Virus record (IMG/VR): IMGVR_UViG_3300033555_000001
Coordinates: 224,001 to 288,000 of that record
Direction: 5' to 3' (one strand)
Source of the DNA: a virus
Lineage: Duplodnaviria > Caudoviricetes
Length of the DNA stretch: 64,000 bases
The position numbers and the translations under genes are program-made. Of the stretch, positions 7,168 to 61,056 are shown piece by piece; positions within the stretch are counted from its first letter, which is position 1, and each line of letters starts with the position of its first letter. Below the pieces are notes generated by a model that was not told the DNA's origin, searched no databases, and saw nothing but the letters and a program-made list of their open reading frames with translations.

Positions 7168-7207
7168 CCGCAACCGCTAAATAGACTTCTCAACACGAGG
7201 AGTCTAT

Positions 7208-16223: not shown

Positions 16224-16275
16224 TATTTAGCGCTTAAAATCATCCCGGTGAACTGCCGGCCGGAAAAGATAAATA
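16224..16275. promoter_or_regulatory. divergent pair of putative late promoters
   Basis: TAAATA on minus (16224-16229) and on plus (16270-16275). Confidence 0.45.
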
Positions 16276-29475: not shown

Positions 29476-29976
29476 GTGAATCTGTTCAAGCTCTATGCTA
29501 ATCCTGAAGAGCTTGACAGTTATGAAGAGGCGCATGAGCTTGTCCCACTTTTAATGTGGGAAAAATACTGGCACAATCCAGCCGAACTAAAAAAGAGAGA
29601 ACACGTAATCACAAAAGATGCAAATGTGTCTTATATGTACGCGCGGTTCATTATAGGCGAAAGATTTGAAGCTGCTGAAGCCATGATTGCAACGTGCGCG
29701 GCCTCGGCTTATGAATATGCTTTCTTTGTTTTAGAGTCAAGATTTGAAGCAGGTGAAGCTGCAATTGCTACCTCAACTAGCTATGCTTATGGATATGCAA
29801 AATACGTTTTAAAAGCAAGATTTGAAGCCGGTGAAGCCGCAATTGCAAAGCATTGCCCAACCTCTTATTGTTATGCAACTAAGATTATTAAAACTCGTTT
29901 CCCCGCTGGTGAAGTCGTAATCGCTAAAGATCAGCGGTTGTCGCAAAAGTATAATGATTTTATTGCACAGTTATAA
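29476..29976 (+). CDS. 26-aa repeat protein, diverged plus-strand copy of the 31.7-34.7 kb family
   Basis: MNLFKLY.NPEELD...LKKRE, four RF(E/P)AGEA.IA repeats. Confidence 0.8.
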   Translation: MNLFKLYANPEELDSYEEAHELVPLLMWEKYWHNPAELKKREHVITKDANVSYMYARFIIGERFEAAEAMIATCAASAYEYAFFVLESRFEAGEAAIATSTSYAYGYAKYVLKARFEAGEAAIAKHCPTSYCYATKIIKTRFPAGEVVIAKDQRLSQKYNDFIAQL

Positions 29977-30860: not shown

Positions 30861-31676
30861 ATGCTGATGCGCATTGCCTCTGACCTGCACCTCGAACAAT
30901 GGGCCGACATGGATGTTGCCGCCCTTGAGATTAATCACCTTCCAAAAGACGACAGGGATCTGGGCTCAGTTCTTGTGCTAGCAGGCGATATCTCTTCTTC
31001 TCCTACACAGCTCGTTGCTTTCATTAAACAAGTTGAACAGCGGTTCAAGCACGTAATCTATCTCGCCGGGAATCATGAGTGGTACCGCCATGAGGTAACC
31101 GCCGTAGTTCCTTATACTGAAAGCCTGTTTAAAGAATATACGGTTAACACCTCACGGGAATTGGGCGGTGTTGGTGTCAAGATTATTGAAGGCACCAAAT
31201 TTATCTTTGGCACGCTGTGGGCCGATGGTGGCAGTACTGCTTTTGACCGCATGGCCGTTGAGCGCGGGCTGTGGGACTTTAATATCATCCGAGTAAATGG
31301 CTTGCGCTTTACTGTGGCGCGCATGCAGGCAATTCACAAGGCTCAAAAAGCACAAATTATTGCTGCTCTTAAAGAACCGTTTGACGGTGTTACTGTTGTT
31401 GCAACTCACCACATGCCATCTTATCGGTTGTGCCATCCTCGCTTTGGCACTGACATTAACGGCGGGTTTGCATCGAACTGTGAGGATATTCTGGCATATG
31501 ATATGGCACCGGACTTCTGGGTTTTTGGCCATACGCACGATGTGATTGATACTAAGATCTTTAACACACGGTGTATTTCTAACCCGTCTGGTTATCGCAA
31601 TGAAAAAGATACGTGTTACAACGATTACTGTATGGGTCCAAAGTTTTTTGAGCTAGAAACTACTTCAGTGACTTAA
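30861..31676 (+). CDS. calcineurin-like metallophosphoesterase
   Basis: SDLH, AGD, GNHE, THH, GHTH. Confidence 0.92.
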   Translation: MLMRIASDLHLEQWADMDVAALEINHLPKDDRDLGSVLVLAGDISSSPTQLVAFIKQVEQRFKHVIYLAGNHEWYRHEVTAVVPYTESLFKEYTVNTSRELGGVGVKIIEGTKFIFGTLWADGGSTAFDRMAVERGLWDFNIIRVNGLRFTVARMQAIHKAQKAQIIAALKEPFDGVTVVATHHMPSYRLCHPRFGTDINGGFASNCEDILAYDMAPDFWVFGHTHDVIDTKIFNTRCISNPSGYRNEKDTCYNDYCMGPKFFELETTSVT

Positions 31677-32241
31677 TAAAATTATTGTATTCCTCGGCAT
31701 ACTCTTGTGACTTAGCAATTGCCGCTTCACCTGCAGGAAACCTTCCCTTGAGCACGTACATTGCGTAAGATAAGGAAGAGTCCGCGTCAGCAGCTATTGC
31801 CGCCTCGCCTGCAGGAAACCTGCCTTCAATCGCGTACTCCGCGTAATTTAAGGATTCGTTCGGGTCAGCAGCTATTGCCGCTTCACCCGCTGGAAACCTG
31901 CCATCAAGTACACTCACCGCATAAAAACCGGCCCATTCTGCACTCTTAGCTATTGCTGCCTCACCAGCTGGAAATCTGCCTTTGAGCACGTTACCTGCAT
32001 AATTACATGACCGTCCTGCACTCTTAGCTATTGCCGCTTCACCAGCAGGAAACCTGCCTTCAAGCACGCGGCTTGCATAATAGTAAGCTGTATTAGCATC
32101 TTTAGCAAACAGTGCTTCTCTCTTTTTTAATTCCTCTTTATCGTCTTCATATTTCTTCCAAACAATAGAAGGAACATGATCCTGTGCATGGTCATAGTGA
32201 TCAAGAGATGTTGGCTTTGAATGTAGGTTGTACAGGTTCAT
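31660..32241 (-). CDS. 26-aa repeat protein, array member 6 (5 repeats, 193 aa)
   Basis: MNLYNLH...LKKREA + GRFPAGEAAIA x5. Confidence 0.88.
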   Translation of the reverse strand: MNLYNLHSKPTSLDHYDHAQDHVPSIVWKKYEDDKEELKKREALFAKDANTAYYYASRVLEGRFPAGEAAIAKSAGRSCNYAGNVLKGRFPAGEAAIAKSAEWAGFYAVSVLDGRFPAGEAAIAADPNESLNYAEYAIEGRFPAGEAAIAADADSSLSYAMYVLKGRFPAGEAAIAKSQEYAEEYNNFIKSLK

Positions 32242-32819
32242 TTTAGTTTCTTAACGAAATCATTGTATTTCTCGGCATACTCTTGTGACTTAGCTATTGT
32301 CTTCTCACCCGCTGGAAACCTGCCTTTCAGCACGTACATTGCGTAAGTTAAGGAAGCTTCTGCACTAGTAGCAATTGCCGCTTCGCCTGCAGGAAACCTG
32401 CCCTCAAGTATATGCGCCGCATATTGATACGACCTGTTTGCACTAGTAGCAATTGCTGCTTCACCTGCCGGAAACCTGCCTTCAAGCACGTGACTTGCAT
32501 ATTGATACGACCATTCTACATTAGTAGCAATTGCCGCTTCTCCAGCTGGGAACCTGCCTTGTGTAACATACTGTGCGTACATAAATGCGTATTCAGGGTC
32601 TTTAGCAATTGCAGCTTCGCCCGCAGGAAATCTACCTTCAAGCGCGTCGTATGCGTAATAGTAAGCAGTTTTAGCATCTTTAGCAAGAATAGCTTCTCTC
32701 TTTTTTAATTCAGCTGGCTTATTTTTATATTTCTTCCATACCAAATACGGAACATGATCAGCTGCCACATCATGGTGATCAAGGGATTCAGGTTTTGCGT
32801 GAAGTTTATAGAGGTTCAT
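32238..32819 (-). CDS. 26-aa repeat protein, array member 5 (5 repeats, 193 aa)
   Basis: GRFPAGEAAIA repeats. Confidence 0.88.
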   Translation of the reverse strand: MNLYKLHAKPESLDHHDVAADHVPYLVWKKYKNKPAELKKREAILAKDAKTAYYYAYDALEGRFPAGEAAIAKDPEYAFMYAQYVTQGRFPAGEAAIATNVEWSYQYASHVLEGRFPAGEAAIATSANRSYQYAAHILEGRFPAGEAAIATSAEASLTYAMYVLKGRFPAGEKTIAKSQEYAEKYNDFVKKLK

Positions 32820-33319
32820 TTTAACGTCGACAAAAATTTATTGTATTCACTTGAATACTCTTGCGATTTTGCAATTGTAGCTTCACCAGCGGGGAACCTG
32901 CCCTTAAGTACGTACACTGCGTAATTTAAGGATTCGTACGCATCAGTAGCAATAGCTGCCTCTCCAGCAAGAAATCTATCTTTGAGCACGTACAGTGCGT
33001 AAGTTAAGGAATCGCGCGCACTAGTAGCAATTGCCGCTTCACCTGCTGGAAATCTTCCTTTATGTACGTACCGTGCGTAATTAACTGACCAGTTTGCACT
33101 AGTAGCAATTGCTGCTTCACCAGCAGGAAACCTGCCTTTTAACACGTACCGTGCGTACTCATAGGCAAATGGCGCATCTTTCGCAAGAACAGCTTCTCTT
33201 TTCTTTAACTCAGCTGGATTATTTTTGTATTTCGCAAAAACAAGAGATGGTACAGTATCGTGTGCAAGATCATAATGGTCGAGAGACTCGGGTTTAGTGT
33301 GTAAGTTATATAGGTTCAT
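32816..33319 (-). CDS. 26-aa repeat protein, array member 4 (4 repeats, 167 aa)
   Basis: GRFPAGEAAIA repeats. Confidence 0.88.
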   Translation of the reverse strand: MNLYNLHTKPESLDHYDLAHDTVPSLVFAKYKNNPAELKKREAVLAKDAPFAYEYARYVLKGRFPAGEAAIATSANWSVNYARYVHKGRFPAGEAAIATSARDSLTYALYVLKDRFLAGEAAIATDAYESLNYAVYVLKGRFPAGEATIAKSQEYSSEYNKFLSTLK

Positions 33320-33897
33320 TTTAATTTGCTAATAAAAGTGTTGTACTCTTTTGCGTATTCAGGGTCTTTAGCAATTGCCGCCTCTCCAGCAGGAAACCTG
33401 TCTTTTAACACCCACTCCGCATAAGTTAAGGATTCGCTCGAGTCAGTAGCTATTGCCGCCTCTCCAGCTGGGAACCTGTCTTTTAACACGTGCAACGCAT
33501 AATTACACGACTGGTATGCATCAGTAGCAATTGCTGCTTCACCAGCCGGAAATCTGCCCCTTAACACGTACAACGCATATTGACACGACTTGTATGCATC
33601 AGCAGCAATTGCTGCTTCACCTGCCGGAAACCTGCTCTGTATAACATACTGCGCGTACATAAATGCATGCTCAGGGTCTTTAGCAATTGCCGCTTCGCCC
33701 ACCGGGAACCTGCCCTTTAACGCGTACCGCGCATATTGATACGCGTACTTAGCATCTTTCGCAAACAGCGCTTCCCTCTTTTTTAACTCAGCCGGGTCGT
33801 CTCTATATTTCTCCCAAACAATAGATGGAACACTATCTTGTGCGTGATCATGGTGGTCGAGAGACTCAGGCTTTGAATGGAGGTTGTACAGGTTCAT
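33316..33897 (-). CDS. 26-aa repeat protein, array member 3 (5 repeats, 193 aa)
   Basis: GRFPAGEAAIA repeats. Confidence 0.88.
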   Translation of the reverse strand: MNLYNLHSKPESLDHHDHAQDSVPSIVWEKYRDDPAELKKREALFAKDAKYAYQYARYALKGRFPVGEAAIAKDPEHAFMYAQYVIQSRFPAGEAAIAADAYKSCQYALYVLRGRFPAGEAAIATDAYQSCNYALHVLKDRFPAGEAAIATDSSESLTYAEWVLKDRFPAGEAAIAKDPEYAKEYNTFISKLK

Positions 33898-34397
33898 TTT
33901 AACATTTTCAGCAATTTATCGTAGTCAGCAGAATACTCATCGTCAGCTCTTATTGCTGCTTCGCCCGCAGGAAATCTGCCCTCAATAATATCCCTTGCGT
34001 ACAGATATGCATATTTTGCGTCCTTAGCAATTGCTGCTTCACCAGTGGGAAATCTGCCCTTTAAAATAAAGCGAGCGTACTCGTATGAGTGCTCTAAAAT
34101 TTTAGCAATTGCTGCTTCGCCGGCAGGAAACCTGCCCCTTAACACGTACGTCGCGTACATAAATGCGTTTTGAGGGCTCTTAGCAATAGCCGCTTCACCA
34201 GCCGGAAATTTTCCTTGAAGAATATCATAGGCGTATTCATACGCGTACTTTTGATCTTTCGCAAACAGCGCTTCTCTCTTTGTTAATTCCTTTGTATTGC
34301 CTTCATATTTGTCCCATGCAACTGATGGTACAGTATCATGCGCCACATCATGGTGATCAAGAGACTCGGGCTTTGAATGTAGGTTGTATAGGTTCAT
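33894..34397 (-). CDS. 26-aa repeat protein, array member 2 (4 repeats, 167 aa)
   Basis: G(K/R)FPAGEAAIA repeats. Confidence 0.88.
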   Translation of the reverse strand: MNLYNLHSKPESLDHHDVAHDTVPSVAWDKYEGNTKELTKREALFAKDQKYAYEYAYDILQGKFPAGEAAIAKSPQNAFMYATYVLRGRFPAGEAAIAKILEHSYEYARFILKGRFPTGEAAIAKDAKYAYLYARDIIEGRFPAGEAAIRADDEYSADYDKLLKMLK

Positions 34398-34741
34398 TTT
34401 AGCGCGCCAATAAAATTGTTGTATTTTTTTGCTACTTCTGGATTTCTCGCAATAGCCGCTTCACCTGCCGGAAACCTGTCTTTTAAGACGTAAAAGGCAT
34501 ATTGATACGACCAGTACTCATCTGTAGCAATCACCGCTTCTCCAGCCGGAAATTTTCCTTGAAGAATGTTCCGTGCGTACCTGTAAGCAATTTCTGAATC
34601 TTTAGCAAGAGCAGCTTCTCTTTTCTTTAACTCAGCAGCGTCGTCTCTATATTTCTCCCAAACAATAGATGGAACACTATCTTGTGCCGCGGCGTGATGG
34701 TCGAGAGACTCTGGTTTAGCGTGCAGGTTATACAGGTTCAT
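34394..34741 (-). CDS. 26-aa repeat protein, array member 1 (2 repeats, 115 aa)
   Basis: Two RFPAGEA units. Confidence 0.85.
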   Translation of the reverse strand: MNLYNLHAKPESLDHHAAAQDSVPSIVWEKYRDDAAELKKREAALAKDSEIAYRYARNILQGKFPAGEAVIATDEYWSYQYAFYVLKDRFPAGEAAIARNPEVAKKYNNFIGALK

Positions 34742-35502
34742 TATTTTGGCAAATGTTCTTTGTAGTGTTTAGCAATTAATTTGTTGATAAACGCTGTATA
34801 GGCCGGAAGTTCGCTAAGAGCCTTGATCTCTGTAGCTTTAACCTCCACATCTCGCTCGTCCATGAATGATTCAGACTCATAGTGAAATTGGAATTTTCTG
34901 TCCTTGCCGCCAAGCTTGCTCATGATGATCATGAGATCGCCATCTTTACTGTAATTGTCAAACTGGTTGTTGTCTTTTGCTGCAGTGCACCATTTTGTTC
35001 CGGAGCCGTACAAGCACGCTGCCTCTTCAGTACGCGGAATAATTACTTTAAAGCCAGGAGCCTCAAAGAATACTTCGGCATCTTTTTTGATGGCTGCAGC
35101 TTTAGCGTTGTTTGAAACTGGAATATCAGATTCATCAAACTGCTCCAGGGCGTCGTACAACTGCTCCAGCGATTTGTACTGGTTTAAATCTTTTACTTCA
35201 AGCTTTGATTTAAACTTATCAAACTTTTCAAGTTCGCCGCGAATACGACCGGCATCTTCAACTTTATAATGCCCAAGGATGTACTGTTTGGTAAGCCACA
35301 CCGTGTTTACCTTTTTACCAATATCCGCGTTAGCACTTATAAAATTAACAAGCTCTAACTCATCCTTGATTTTCTTGGCGCTGCCGTCTTTTTCCATGGC
35401 AGCAAGAATTTTGTCCTTGAACTGGGCAGCGGTGAATTCGATGCGGCCTTCAACCAACATGTTTAAATAGAGTACTGGAGCGTGCAGTTCAACTAATTTC
35501 AT
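34741..35502 (-). CDS. GTKWCT-motif protein (tentatively PcfJ-like), first gene of the repeat operon
   Basis: EEAACLYGSGTKWCTAA...F..Y...G...KFQFH...FMDERD; MKLVEL leader. Confidence 0.5.
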   Translation of the reverse strand: MKLVELHAPVLYLNMLVEGRIEFTAAQFKDKILAAMEKDGSAKKIKDELELVNFISANADIGKKVNTVWLTKQYILGHYKVEDAGRIRGELEKFDKFKSKLEVKDLNQYKSLEQLYDALEQFDESDIPVSNNAKAAAIKKDAEVFFEAPGFKVIIPRTEEAACLYGSGTKWCTAAKDNNQFDNYSKDGDLMIIMSKLGGKDRKFQFHYESESFMDERDVEVKATEIKALSELPAYTAFINKLIAKHYKEHLPK

Positions 35503-35529
35503 TTTTAATCCTAGTAAGAAAAGTCTCAG

Positions 35530-35536
35530 TATTTAG
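35530..35536 (-). promoter_or_regulatory. putative late promoter of the repeat operon
   Basis: CTAAATA on minus, 28 nt upstream of ATG 35502. Confidence 0.55.
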
Positions 35537-49389: not shown

Positions 49390-49477
49390 TATTTTCCTCC
49401 TAGTCAGATCTTATTTACACAAGTACAATTTAACGGTGTATAATAGGCTAAATAATCGAAATTACCGTGGAGCGCAC

Positions 49478-57792: not shown

Positions 57793-57822
57793 TTTACACG
57801 TTTGCTAAATAAGTGCTATAAT
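57793..57822 (+). promoter_or_regulatory. sigma70-like promoter for the tRNA cluster
   Basis: TTTACA-N18-TATAAT. Confidence 0.55.
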
Positions 57823-60877: not shown

Positions 60878-61056
60878 AGTCTTAACTCAAGCAGTTCGAG
60901 CCCGCTAATATTTGCCATTCAATATTAATATAATAACAACATAATAGCGCTAAATAGTAGCGTGCTGGTTCAAGTCCAGCACAAGAACATAGCGCAGCCC
61001 CCGGAACTGCGTCTGTATAAGTTAAATCCGGGCTAATTTAACTTACGAGGTTAAAA

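What the first reader, a model, noticed from the sequence alone, without database searches (positions are those of the whole stretch)
31660..35536. Late-promoter operon: GTKWCT protein followed by six coupled paralogs with a variable 26-aa repeat
Seen: minus-strand operon behind CTAAATA, with a 253-aa lead gene and then six genes joined by TAATG/ATGA overlaps. Each has the same roughly 45-aa cap (MNLYNLH.KPESLDH...LKKREA) and 2, 4, 5, 4, 5, 5 units of [G/D]RFPAGEAAIA-x15. Lengths 115/167/193 differ by exact multiples of 26. The scaffold is invariant while the helix positions vary (AGFYAVSVL, SLNYAEYAI, SYQYASHVL, SCQYALYVL, SLTYAEWVL). A seventh diverged copy is at 29476 on the plus strand. 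Inference: a recombination-shuffled library of solenoid binders (antibody/DARPin-like) with a shared cap, possibly docking on the lead protein and packaged in the head to neutralise diverse host targets. I know of no assigned function for this family.
Basis: partly seen in the sequence, partly recalled or inferred. Interest (0 to 1): 0.82.

Follow-up and report, generated by a model that had tools for sequence, protein, structure and literature searches.

The report
Phage hub plus variable repeat adaptors
A 310-kb phage from an ice metagenome has an operon behind a late-type promoter motif in which one conserved "hub" protein is followed by six sister genes for small helical-repeat proteins that share a docking peptide but differ on one surface; this module is undescribed yet widespread in phages, and probably directs one common activity at several different targets.

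Summary
A 253-aa lead gene with a WCT motif is followed by six overlapping paralogs of 115/167/193/167/193/193 aa. Each has a roughly 46-aa cap and 2/4/5/4/5/5 units of an exact 26-aa repeat. A seventh copy lies at 29476.

The paralogs model confidently as two-helix solenoids. Helix A is invariant. The exposed positions of helix B are hypervariable, here and in an unrelated phage array.

The lead belongs to a very large uncharacterised phage family (11,506 clusters, no Pfam model). In other phages the same domain is fused to these repeats, or to LRR, ankyrin, LRV, DUF4116 or WG repeats.

Complex prediction docks the paralogs' conserved N-terminal peptide on the lead's C-terminal helices (0.82 against 0.01 for controls). 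I therefore read the locus as a constant hub with exchangeable recognition subunits.

Relatives carry 0 to at least 10 paralogs. CTAAATA is a real promoter-like motif that precedes tail-fibre and virion genes. A PA5oct homolog of the lead is annotated as found in virions by mass spectrometry.

The paralogs are old (synonymous sites saturated) and mosaic, with no sign of positive selection and no DGR. The biochemical activity, the targets and any packaging into the head remain unknown. The scan had noted this same stretch once before.

The parts
35530..35536 (-). CTAAATA promoter-like motif (a variant of the T4 late TATAAATA), 27 nt upstream of the lead ATG
   Evidence: Genome-wide, 27/48 copies lie 10-60 nt upstream of ORF starts against a 7.7% background, P = 4e-18. 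The downstream genes that have a PHROG function are tail fibre or virion structural.
35509..35512 (-). AGGA ribosome-binding site of the lead gene
   Evidence: read directly from the sequence
34741..35502 (-). Lead or 'hub' gene, 253 aa: an N-terminal helical domain (about 1-130) and a C-terminal alpha/beta domain (about 140-253) with the invariant W171-C172-T173. The predicted docking surface is residues 208-252.
34394..34741 (-). Paralog p1, 115 aa: cap plus 2 units
   Evidence: used as the partner in the complex prediction
33894..34397 (-). Paralog p2, 167 aa: cap plus 4 units
33316..33897 (-). Paralog p3, 193 aa: cap plus 5 units. This is the paralog that was modelled (pLDDT 94.7).
32816..33319 (-). 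Paralog p4, 167 aa: cap plus 4 units
32238..32819 (-). Paralog p5, 193 aa: cap plus 5 units. It is mosaic relative to p3 and p6.
31660..32241 (-). Paralog p6, 193 aa: cap plus 5 units. Its 3' end overlaps the convergent metallophosphoesterase-like ORF (30861-31676) by 17 nt.
29476..29976 (+). Diverged seventh paralog p7, 166 aa, GTG start, 3 nt after the DNA-ligase-like ORF. Its cap is 41-54% identical to the others.

Best explanation
The locus encodes a split 'constant hub plus exchangeable recognition subunit' module.

The 253-aa lead protein is the hub. Each paralog is an adaptor with three parts: a conserved N-terminal docking peptide (M-N-L-Y-x-L-H-x-K-P-E-S-L-D-H...), a degenerate capping repeat, and 2-5 copies of a 26-aa helix-A/helix-B hairpin.

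Helix A (P-A-G-E-A-A-I-A) and the buried positions of helix B (S/A16, Y19, A20, V23, L24) form an invariant scaffold. The A-B loop and the exposed positions of helix B (13-15, 17, 18, 21, 22, 25) differ from unit to unit and form the recognition surface.

The docking peptide is predicted to bind the hub's last strand and two C-terminal helices (residues 208-252). This gives six or seven different heterodimers. They reproduce in trans the single-chain architecture (hub domain followed by a repeat array) found in many other phages.

The operon sits behind a T4-late-like CTAAATA motif and is translationally coupled.

Shown: the anatomy, the family size, the fusions, the conserved synteny, the variable copy number, the variability pattern, the mosaicism and the behaviour of the promoter motif.

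Predicted: the fold and the docking.

Inferred: the variable face binds different targets, most likely host proteins, and the hub supplies a common function. That function could be an enzymatic activity using the invariant Cys172 with the near-invariant K203, Q205, H207 and D218, or a virion-targeting or anchoring role.
For: Anatomy.

Folds: the AF2 model of p3 has pLDDT 94.7 and is an all-helical hairpin solenoid. The lead model has pLDDT 92.3.

Variability:
- Scaffold positions have entropy near 0 and dN/dS 0.02 although pS is 0.60.
- Variable positions have entropy 1.8-3.3.
- The same positions are hypervariable in 49 units of an unrelated array, L070.

Docking: ipSAE is 0.82 against 0.01 for the best of three controls. 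The mark was reached by 58 of 80 solved complexes and 2 of 110 mismatched pairs. Because my own alignments were used, those counts hold only roughly. The interface joins lead residues 208-252 to cap residues 1-24, 44 and 47. It includes the cap's invariant or near-invariant L3, H7, L13, D14, H15, A19, V23 and P24.

Fusions:
- P0041 and P0182 are lead plus paralog in one chain.
- 21 of 145 top family representatives carry the repeat C-terminal to the lead domain.
- phrog_28193 covers both parts.
- AFDB entry A0A5C7J2L6 matches both models.
- Other relatives fuse the domain to WG, DUF4116, LRR, LRV or ankyrin repeats.

Synteny: in IMG/VR loci the lead is followed by 1, 3, 2, 6 or at least 10 paralogs, or occurs as tandem fused copies. 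See also L001 and L004. Every stand-alone paralog keeps the N-terminal peptide.

Promoter.
Against: - No experiment bears on binding, expression or targets. The docking is a model's confidence obtained with my own alignments.
- dN/dS at the variable sites is below 1, so relaxed constraint on exposed residues would give the same pattern.
- Surface exposure was inferred from helical periodicity, not computed on coordinates.
- Some stand-alone lead homologs have no paralog nearby (L002/L006, L033, L045, L055), so the hub can work without these adaptors.
- Total adaptor output may exceed hub output, because seven genes face one.
Confidence: 0.55

Rival explanations
1. Packaged cargo. The hub is a capsid-targeted internal protein, in the way T4 IPI-III and Alt are. 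It would carry a short N-terminal targeting peptide cut after L-x-E by the prohead protease. The adaptors would ride into the head on the hub and be ejected with the DNA to meet host defences early. This extends the hub-adaptor reading rather than excluding it.
For: - The operon lies behind the CTAAATA motif that also precedes tail-fibre and virion genes.
- The PA5oct homolog is 34% identical over 234 aa, lies next to the large terminase and is annotated 'structural protein, ESI-MS/MS'. PMC7318152 reports 93 virion-linked gene products.
- The genome encodes a T4-type prohead protease, Peptidase_S77, E = 9e-24.
- 52 of 84 family members have L/I-x-E at lead residues 16-18. The T4 cleavage rule itself is from my own knowledge.
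Against: - L-x-E is a common tripeptide in helices and is absent from 32 of 84 members.
- The PA5oct protein has a different C-terminal half, and no paralogs of the repeat family were found in cultured phages.
- There are no virion data for this phage.
- The paralogs have no L/I-x-E near their N-terminus.
Confidence: 0.25
2. Morphogenetic or structural role for the phage's own parts. Hub-adaptor pairs would be virion components or assembly chaperones, for example connectors for several different fibres. The variable faces would then match phage proteins rather than host proteins.
For: - The promoter motif is the late type.
- The PA5oct homolog is virion-associated.
- L001 places the lead and two paralogs between baseplate and sheath genes.
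Against: - In this window the operon sits among nucleotide-metabolism and replication genes.
- Copy number swings from 0 to at least 10 between relatives, which is unusual for structural parts.
- The same domain is fused to LRR and ankyrin repeats, typical of host-directed binders.
Confidence: 0.15
3. Independent paralogs with no hub. The repeat proteins act alone, and adjacency to the lead reflects only shared regulation. The variability is neutral drift of exposed residues.
For: - dN/dS at the variable sites is below 1.
- Some lead homologs lack neighbouring paralogs.
- p7 lies apart from the lead.
Against: - There are recurrent fusions in one polypeptide.
- The N-terminal peptide is conserved in all stand-alone copies across distant phages.
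- The complex score is 0.82 against 0.01 for controls.
Confidence: 0.1
4. DNA-binding regulators, as suggested by the sub-threshold HTH_35 (PF13693) matches and the JGI label 'lambda repressor-like' on some homologs.
For: There are sub-threshold HTH_35 hits on six paralogs, the best at 23.3 bits against a cut-off of 25. Some homologs carry the precomputed label.
Against: - The hits cover only 31 of 75 profile positions and coincide with a single repeat unit.
- The family profile finds no solved HTH protein at E <= 1.
- The model is a solenoid, not a winged helix.
Confidence: 0.03

Closest known systems
Viral and cellular 'constant domain plus variable repeat' adaptor families (F-box/SKP1 proteins; poxvirus ankyrin-PRANC host-range proteins)
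   Same: One constant module is joined to many paralogous repeat arrays with variable recognition surfaces. These occur as lineage-specific tandem expansions whose copy number differs between relatives.
   Different: No sequence or fold relation to F-box or PRANC was found; the only hit is a Cedratvirus F-box protein at E 0.08. Here the constant module is often a separate polypeptide that docks a conserved N-terminal peptide. No link to a degradation machine is known. The analogy comes from my own knowledge.
PcfJ-like proteins (Pfam PF14284)
   Same: There are weak fold-level and embedding-level resemblances. About a dozen PcfJ-like viral proteins appear at Foldseek E 8e-4 to 0.1, and one Atlas cluster at 0.91 has 26% PF14284 members. 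A PcfJ-like motif has been reported upstream of the variable region of some DGR target genes (PMC5758913).
   Different: The PF14284 model does not match the lead at E <= 10. Profile comparison with two PcfJ-bearing proteins is negative. PcfJ itself has no known function.
Short alpha-solenoid repeats: LRV (PF01816), PBS-lyase-type HEAT repeats, DUF4116, and designed helical repeat binders (DARPins, DHRs)
   Same: Both are short two-helix hairpin repeats that stack into a solenoid, with variability confined to a few exposed positions per unit.
T4 internal proteins and Alt (capsid targeting sequence, gp21 cleavage)
   Same: The promoter is the late type, a T4-type prohead protease is present, the hub family has an N-terminal M-K-L-x-E-L...L-x-E motif, and a homolog is annotated as virion-associated in PA5oct.
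   Different: There is no sequence relation, and neither cleavage nor packaging is shown. Only the hub, not the paralogs, has the motif.

Membership tests
Pfam PF14284 PcfJ | Match to the family HMM at or above the gathering score | tested here: not met
   No hit for the lead at E <= 1, none for any of 41 homologs at E <= 0.01, and none in the six-frame search of the genome at E <= 10.
Pfam PF14284 PcfJ | Remote homology by profile comparison with bona fide members | tested here: not met
   hhalign of the 84-sequence lead profile against two PcfJ-bearing ORFs (L096, L097) gives probability about 0.1. These were single-sequence templates, so sensitivity was limited.
Pfam PF14284 PcfJ | Shared fold | tested here: inconclusive
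   Foldseek E is 4e-3 to 0.1 with TM 0.25-0.29 to PcfJ-like entries in AFDB and BFVD.
Pfam PF13693 HTH_35 | HMM match above 25 bits that covers the domain | tested here: not met
   The best score is 23.3 bits, covering profile positions 19-49 of 75, which is one repeat unit. There is no solved HTH relative at E <= 1.
Pfam PF13475 DUF4116 | HMM match in the paralogs | tested here: not met
   No hit in any of the seven paralogs. DUF4116 occurs only in other proteins that carry the lead-like domain.
Alpha-solenoid (helical hairpin repeat) proteins | Tandem two-helix units that stack into a continuous superhelix | tested here: met
   The AF2 model has pLDDT 94.7 and pTM 0.87, with alternating 8- and 12-residue helices every 26 aa. 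This is a prediction only.
T4-type late promoter | A -10-like TATAAATA-type element at a fixed short distance before late (structural) genes | tested here: met
   CTAAATA lies 21-28 nt before the ATG in most of 27 cases, P = 4e-18. It precedes tail-fibre and virion-structural genes.
T4-type late promoter | A gp55-type late sigma factor and late timing of the transcripts | not tested
   No gp55 search was run, and no RNA run holds this phage.
T4-type packaged internal proteins | A prohead protease of the gp21 type in the genome | tested here: met
   Peptidase_S77 at G000:178565-178972, E = 9e-24.
T4-type packaged internal proteins | An N-terminal targeting peptide that ends in L/I-x-E and is cleaved | tested here: inconclusive
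   L-V-E at lead residues 16-18; L/I-x-E at that column in 52 of 84 homologs. Cleavage cannot be tested here.
T4-type packaged internal proteins | Presence in the virion | not testable with these tools
   The only evidence is the distant PA5oct homolog annotated 'ESI-MS/MS' (PMC7318152).
Diversity-generating retroelement targets | A reverse transcriptase and a template repeat near the variable region | tested here: not met
   There is no RVT_1 match in the 310-kb record. No paralog pair shares more than 48 nt exactly.

The most novel reading that the evidence does not exclude
Phages carry a natural, modular targeting system. A constant hub domain would be a thiol enzyme using the invariant Cys172 with His207 and Asp218, loaded into the capsid through a T4-like N-terminal signal. 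A genome-encoded panel of small solenoid adaptors, each docking through one shared peptide, would direct it to different host proteins. In other phages the same system would occur as a single chain with LRR, ankyrin or WG arrays. This would be a phage counterpart of F-box-type substrate receptors, and a major undescribed class of host-takeover or counter-defence effectors.
Probability: 0.2. Interest if true: 0.85.

Novelty: new variant of a known kind. Interest (0 to 1): 0.66.

Why it matters
The lead domain defines one of the larger uncharacterised phage protein families: 11,506 clusters at 50% identity, 2,444 of them at E <= 1e-30. It has no Pfam model, and the literature held here contains no paper on it.

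The domain is repeatedly joined to every common class of protein-binding repeat. Here it is joined in trans to a panel of adaptors through a shared docking peptide. This turns an anonymous family into a testable hypothesis: a constant module plus interchangeable recognition modules.

If the hypothesis holds, it offers three things:
- a handle on how large phages address many host targets with one activity;
- a candidate explanation for part of the "dark matter" of jumbo-phage virion proteomes;
- a compact natural 26-aa repeat scaffold with defined variable positions, of interest for binder engineering.

Tried and rejected
- **Cultured phages, paralog operon:** megablast of the operon and tblastn of a paralog against 50,697 phage records found nothing. 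The BLAST low-complexity filter may contribute to this.
- **Family libraries:** Pfam, NCBIfam and PADLOC gave no hit above threshold for any of the eight proteins. A PADLOC 'Cyclase' hit (E 0.0018, no stretch) and PHROG 'terminase' hits on single repeat units were judged to be repeat-composition noise.
- **PDB by sequence:** the paralog profile found nothing. The lead profile hit designer PPR proteins at E 3e-9 only by summing eight stretches, each with i-Evalue above 50, so this was rejected as an artefact.
- **PcfJ membership:** rejected.
- **DGR-driven diversification:** rejected.
- **Recent duplication or gene conversion as the cause of scaffold identity:** rejected, because synonymous sites are saturated.
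- **The search for related loci:** the 84-sequence alignment and the single protein both failed. A small 8-sequence alignment worked.
- **Literature:** a 'PcfJ' search is swamped by C. elegans pCFJ plasmids. 'PcfJ-like', 'PF14284' and 'DUF4116' return nothing functional. Two jumbo-phage reviews do not mention the family.
- **Expression:** only the source DNA run (ice metagenome) holds the stretch, with no RNA.

Full report
**1. Observation**

The ORF list shows a minus-strand block in an otherwise plus-strand region.
- The lead ORF is at 34741-35502 (253 aa, containing GSGTKWCTAA).
- Six ORFs follow, of 115, 167, 193, 167, 193 and 193 aa.
- The lead stop and the p1 start share one base (TAATG). 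All later junctions share four bases (ATGA).
- Tandem Repeats Finder reports a 78-bp period in every paralog.
- Parsing on F..[GA]E gives 2, 4, 5, 4, 5, 5 units at exactly 26-residue spacing.
- The seventh copy (29476-29976, plus strand, GTG start) begins 3 nt after a ligase-like ORF.
- The window is positions 224001-288000 of a 310,728-bp IMG/VR virus record, estimated 87% complete. That record holds exactly these seven copies and one lead.
- The only public run that holds the stretch is an ice metagenome.

**2. Promoter**

CTAAATA lies 27 nt upstream of the lead ATG. By count the motif is not enriched: 7 in the window against 9 expected. Its position is what stands out.
- In the whole genome, 27 of 48 copies lie 10-60 nt upstream of a same-strand ATG ORF of at least 60 aa. 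Most of these are 21-28 nt upstream.
- For the 104 permuted 7-mers the figure is 7.7% (binomial P = 4e-18).
- I scanned ten downstream genes. The three that carry a PHROG function are a long-tail-fibre distal subunit, a tail fibre and a virion structural protein.

I read the motif as a T4-late-type promoter element; that it is a variant of TATAAATA is my own knowledge. Late timing itself is not shown.

**3. The paralogs**

AlphaFold2 on a 36-sequence alignment gives pLDDT 94.7 and pTM 0.87. After a less confident N-terminal 20 residues, the model alternates 8-residue and 12-residue helices every 26 residues.

Across the 19 internal units:
- Positions 1-10 (R-F-P-A-G-E-A-A-I-A, which includes helix A) and positions Y19 and A20 are essentially invariant.
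- S/A16, V23 and L24 are conservative.
- Positions 13, 14, 15, 17, 18, 21, 22 and 25 have entropies of 1.8-3.3 bits.

On helix B the conserved residues fall at i, i+3, i+4, i+7 and i+8, which is a buried stripe. The variable ones therefore occupy the exposed faces and the A-B loop. This is inferred from periodicity, not from coordinates.

The same positions (12, 14, 15, 17, 18, 21, 22) are the hypervariable ones in 49 units of an independent array, L070. The pattern is thus a property of the family.

**4. Age and evolutionary mode**

- Between units, synonymous differences are saturated even in scaffold codons (pS 0.60). Scaffold dN/dS is 0.02.
- Scaffold identity is therefore maintained at the protein level. 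It is not a product of recent duplication or gene conversion.
- Variable positions give dN/dS of about 0.6. This fits relaxed constraint and does not demonstrate positive selection. With saturated dS the ratio is crude.
- Terminal units are related by position across genes, which points to whole-gene duplication. Some internal neighbours are each other's closest relatives, which points to unit duplication.
- The three 193-aa genes are mosaic. In unit 1, p5 sides with p3 (25 informative sites against 7). In units 4-5, p5 sides with p6 (35 against 9). Fisher P = 6e-7, with segments chosen after inspection.
- No reverse transcriptase is present, so a DGR is excluded for this record.

**5. The lead protein**

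- It has no Pfam, NCBIfam or PADLOC match. It does hit two PHROGs of unknown function, and one of them (phrog_28193) also matches the repeats.
- A profile search of 1.84 billion representatives returns 11,506 clusters at E <= 1e-3 and 2,444 at E <= 1e-30. Many hits are long, with up to five copies of the domain.
- The model (pLDDT 92.3) has a helical N-domain and an alpha/beta C-domain.
- Over 84 homologs the invariant residues are Y74, W171, C172 and T173. Residues K203, Q205, H207 and D218 are at least 90% conserved.
- The Cys, His, Asp order and spacing suggest a thiol active site to me. No structural match supports any particular enzyme class.
- PcfJ-like proteins appear only as weak fold-level neighbours. 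The PF14284 model and profile comparisons are negative.

**6. The link between lead and paralogs**

*Fusions*
- P0041 and P0182 are single chains of lead plus repeats. P0182 even retains the cap.
- 21 of the 145 best family representatives carry the repeat family C-terminal to the lead domain.
- AFDB entry A0A5C7J2L6 matches the lead model at residues 10-281 and the paralog model at residues 350-533 (TM 0.74).
- Other relatives join the same domain to WG, DUF4116, LRR, LRV or ankyrin repeats, almost all in Uroviricota.

*Synteny*
- In L001 and L004 the lead is followed by two paralogs and one paralog.
- Among 79 IMG/VR loci, stand-alone leads are followed directly by 1, 3, 2, 6 or at least 10 paralogs. 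Elsewhere there are tandem fused copies.
- A few leads have no paralog nearby.

*Shared peptide*
- Every stand-alone paralog in these distant phages keeps the N-terminal peptide M-[ND]-L-Y-x-[LFY]-H-x-x-P-x-x-L.

*Complex prediction*
- The lead with the 115-aa paralog scored 0.82, median of three runs, against 0.01 for the best of three controls.
- In the tool's calibration that mark was reached by 58 of 80 solved complexes and 2 of 110 mismatched pairs. Because my own alignments were used, the counts hold only roughly.
- The interface joins lead residues 208-252 to cap residues 1-24, 44 and 47. It includes most of the cap's invariant residues.

**7. Interpretation**

The simplest reading is a hub with exchangeable recognition subunits. 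One constant protein docks any of six or seven adaptors through a common peptide. Each adaptor presents a different helix-B surface. This is the split form of an architecture that many phages encode as one chain.

What the hub does and what the adaptors bind are not known.

Hints that the system is virion-associated are indirect.
- The promoter is the late type.
- The PA5oct homolog (34% identity over 234 residues) lies next to the large terminase and is annotated 'structural protein, ESI-MS/MS'. PMC7318152 reports 93 virion-linked gene products.
- The genome has a T4-type prohead protease.
- An L/I-x-E tripeptide stands at lead residues 16-18 in 52 of 84 homologs. From my own knowledge this resembles the T4 gp21 cleavage rule.

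I give packaging about one chance in four.

**8. Comparison and novelty**

No paper in the held library describes the family. This includes two jumbo-phage overviews. The only mention of PcfJ-like is as a motif upstream of the variable region in some DGR targets.

The logic resembles F-box or poxvirus ankyrin-PRANC adaptor families, and the repeat resembles LRV or HEAT-type solenoids. Membership in any named family was tested and not met.

I class the locus as a new variant of a known kind: viral constant-domain plus variable-repeat adaptor families. Its unusual feature is that the two parts are separate, translationally coupled polypeptides.

The scan had noted this same stretch once before, in an overlapping window (e1-5321652). 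No look-alike on other DNA was on record.

Noticed in passing
whole genome G000; in the window at 811-817, 7177-7183, 16224-16230, 35530-35536, 49448-49454, 57805-57811, 60950-60956: CTAAATA is usually preceded by G. It lies 21-28 nt before start codons in 27 of 48 genomic copies, including tail-fibre and virion genes, so it is a candidate late-promoter consensus for this phage group. Several downstream proteins start M-K-L-x-[ED]-[LI].
   Followed up: partly
L070:359-7931 (IMG/VR contig of 84,887 bp): This is an array of ten or eleven tandem, overlapping paralogs of the same repeat family (171-362 aa, 3-10 units each), directly after a lead-type gene that is cut by the contig end. It is the largest expansion seen. 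L016/L017 have seven copies.
   Followed up: partly
L038:7393-11413 and L040:5208-9306: There are three tandem genes, each a fused lead-domain-plus-repeat protein (432, 408/434 and 504 aa). In these phages the expansion happened to the fused form rather than to the adaptor alone.
   Followed up: no
P0168 (1844 aa), P0169, P0170 (metagenomic proteins): These giant proteins carry three to five copies of the lead-like domain. P0168 and P0188 also carry WG beta-repeats.
   Followed up: no
BFVD hits A0A481YZT2, A0A481Z016, A0A481YW50: Proteins with the lead-like fold are labelled Marseillevirus LCMAC201/202, and one is an ankyrin-repeat protein. Either the domain also occurs in giant-virus bins or phage contigs were binned there.
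   Followed up: no
G000:C1:178565-178972 (-), outside the window: A T4-type prohead protease (Peptidase_S77, E = 9e-24) lies next to a 972-aa gene that is preceded by CTAAATA. This is probably the head module.
   Followed up: no
window 31660-31676: The last paralog and the convergent metallophosphoesterase-like ORF (30861-31676, +) overlap by 17 nt at their 3' ends. No terminator-like hairpin was reported between them.
   Followed up: no
window 32412-32708 (+) and similar: Open antisense frames of 40-98 aa run through the repeat genes. They are most likely by-products of the Ala/Gly-rich periodic coding sequence, not genes.
   Followed up: no
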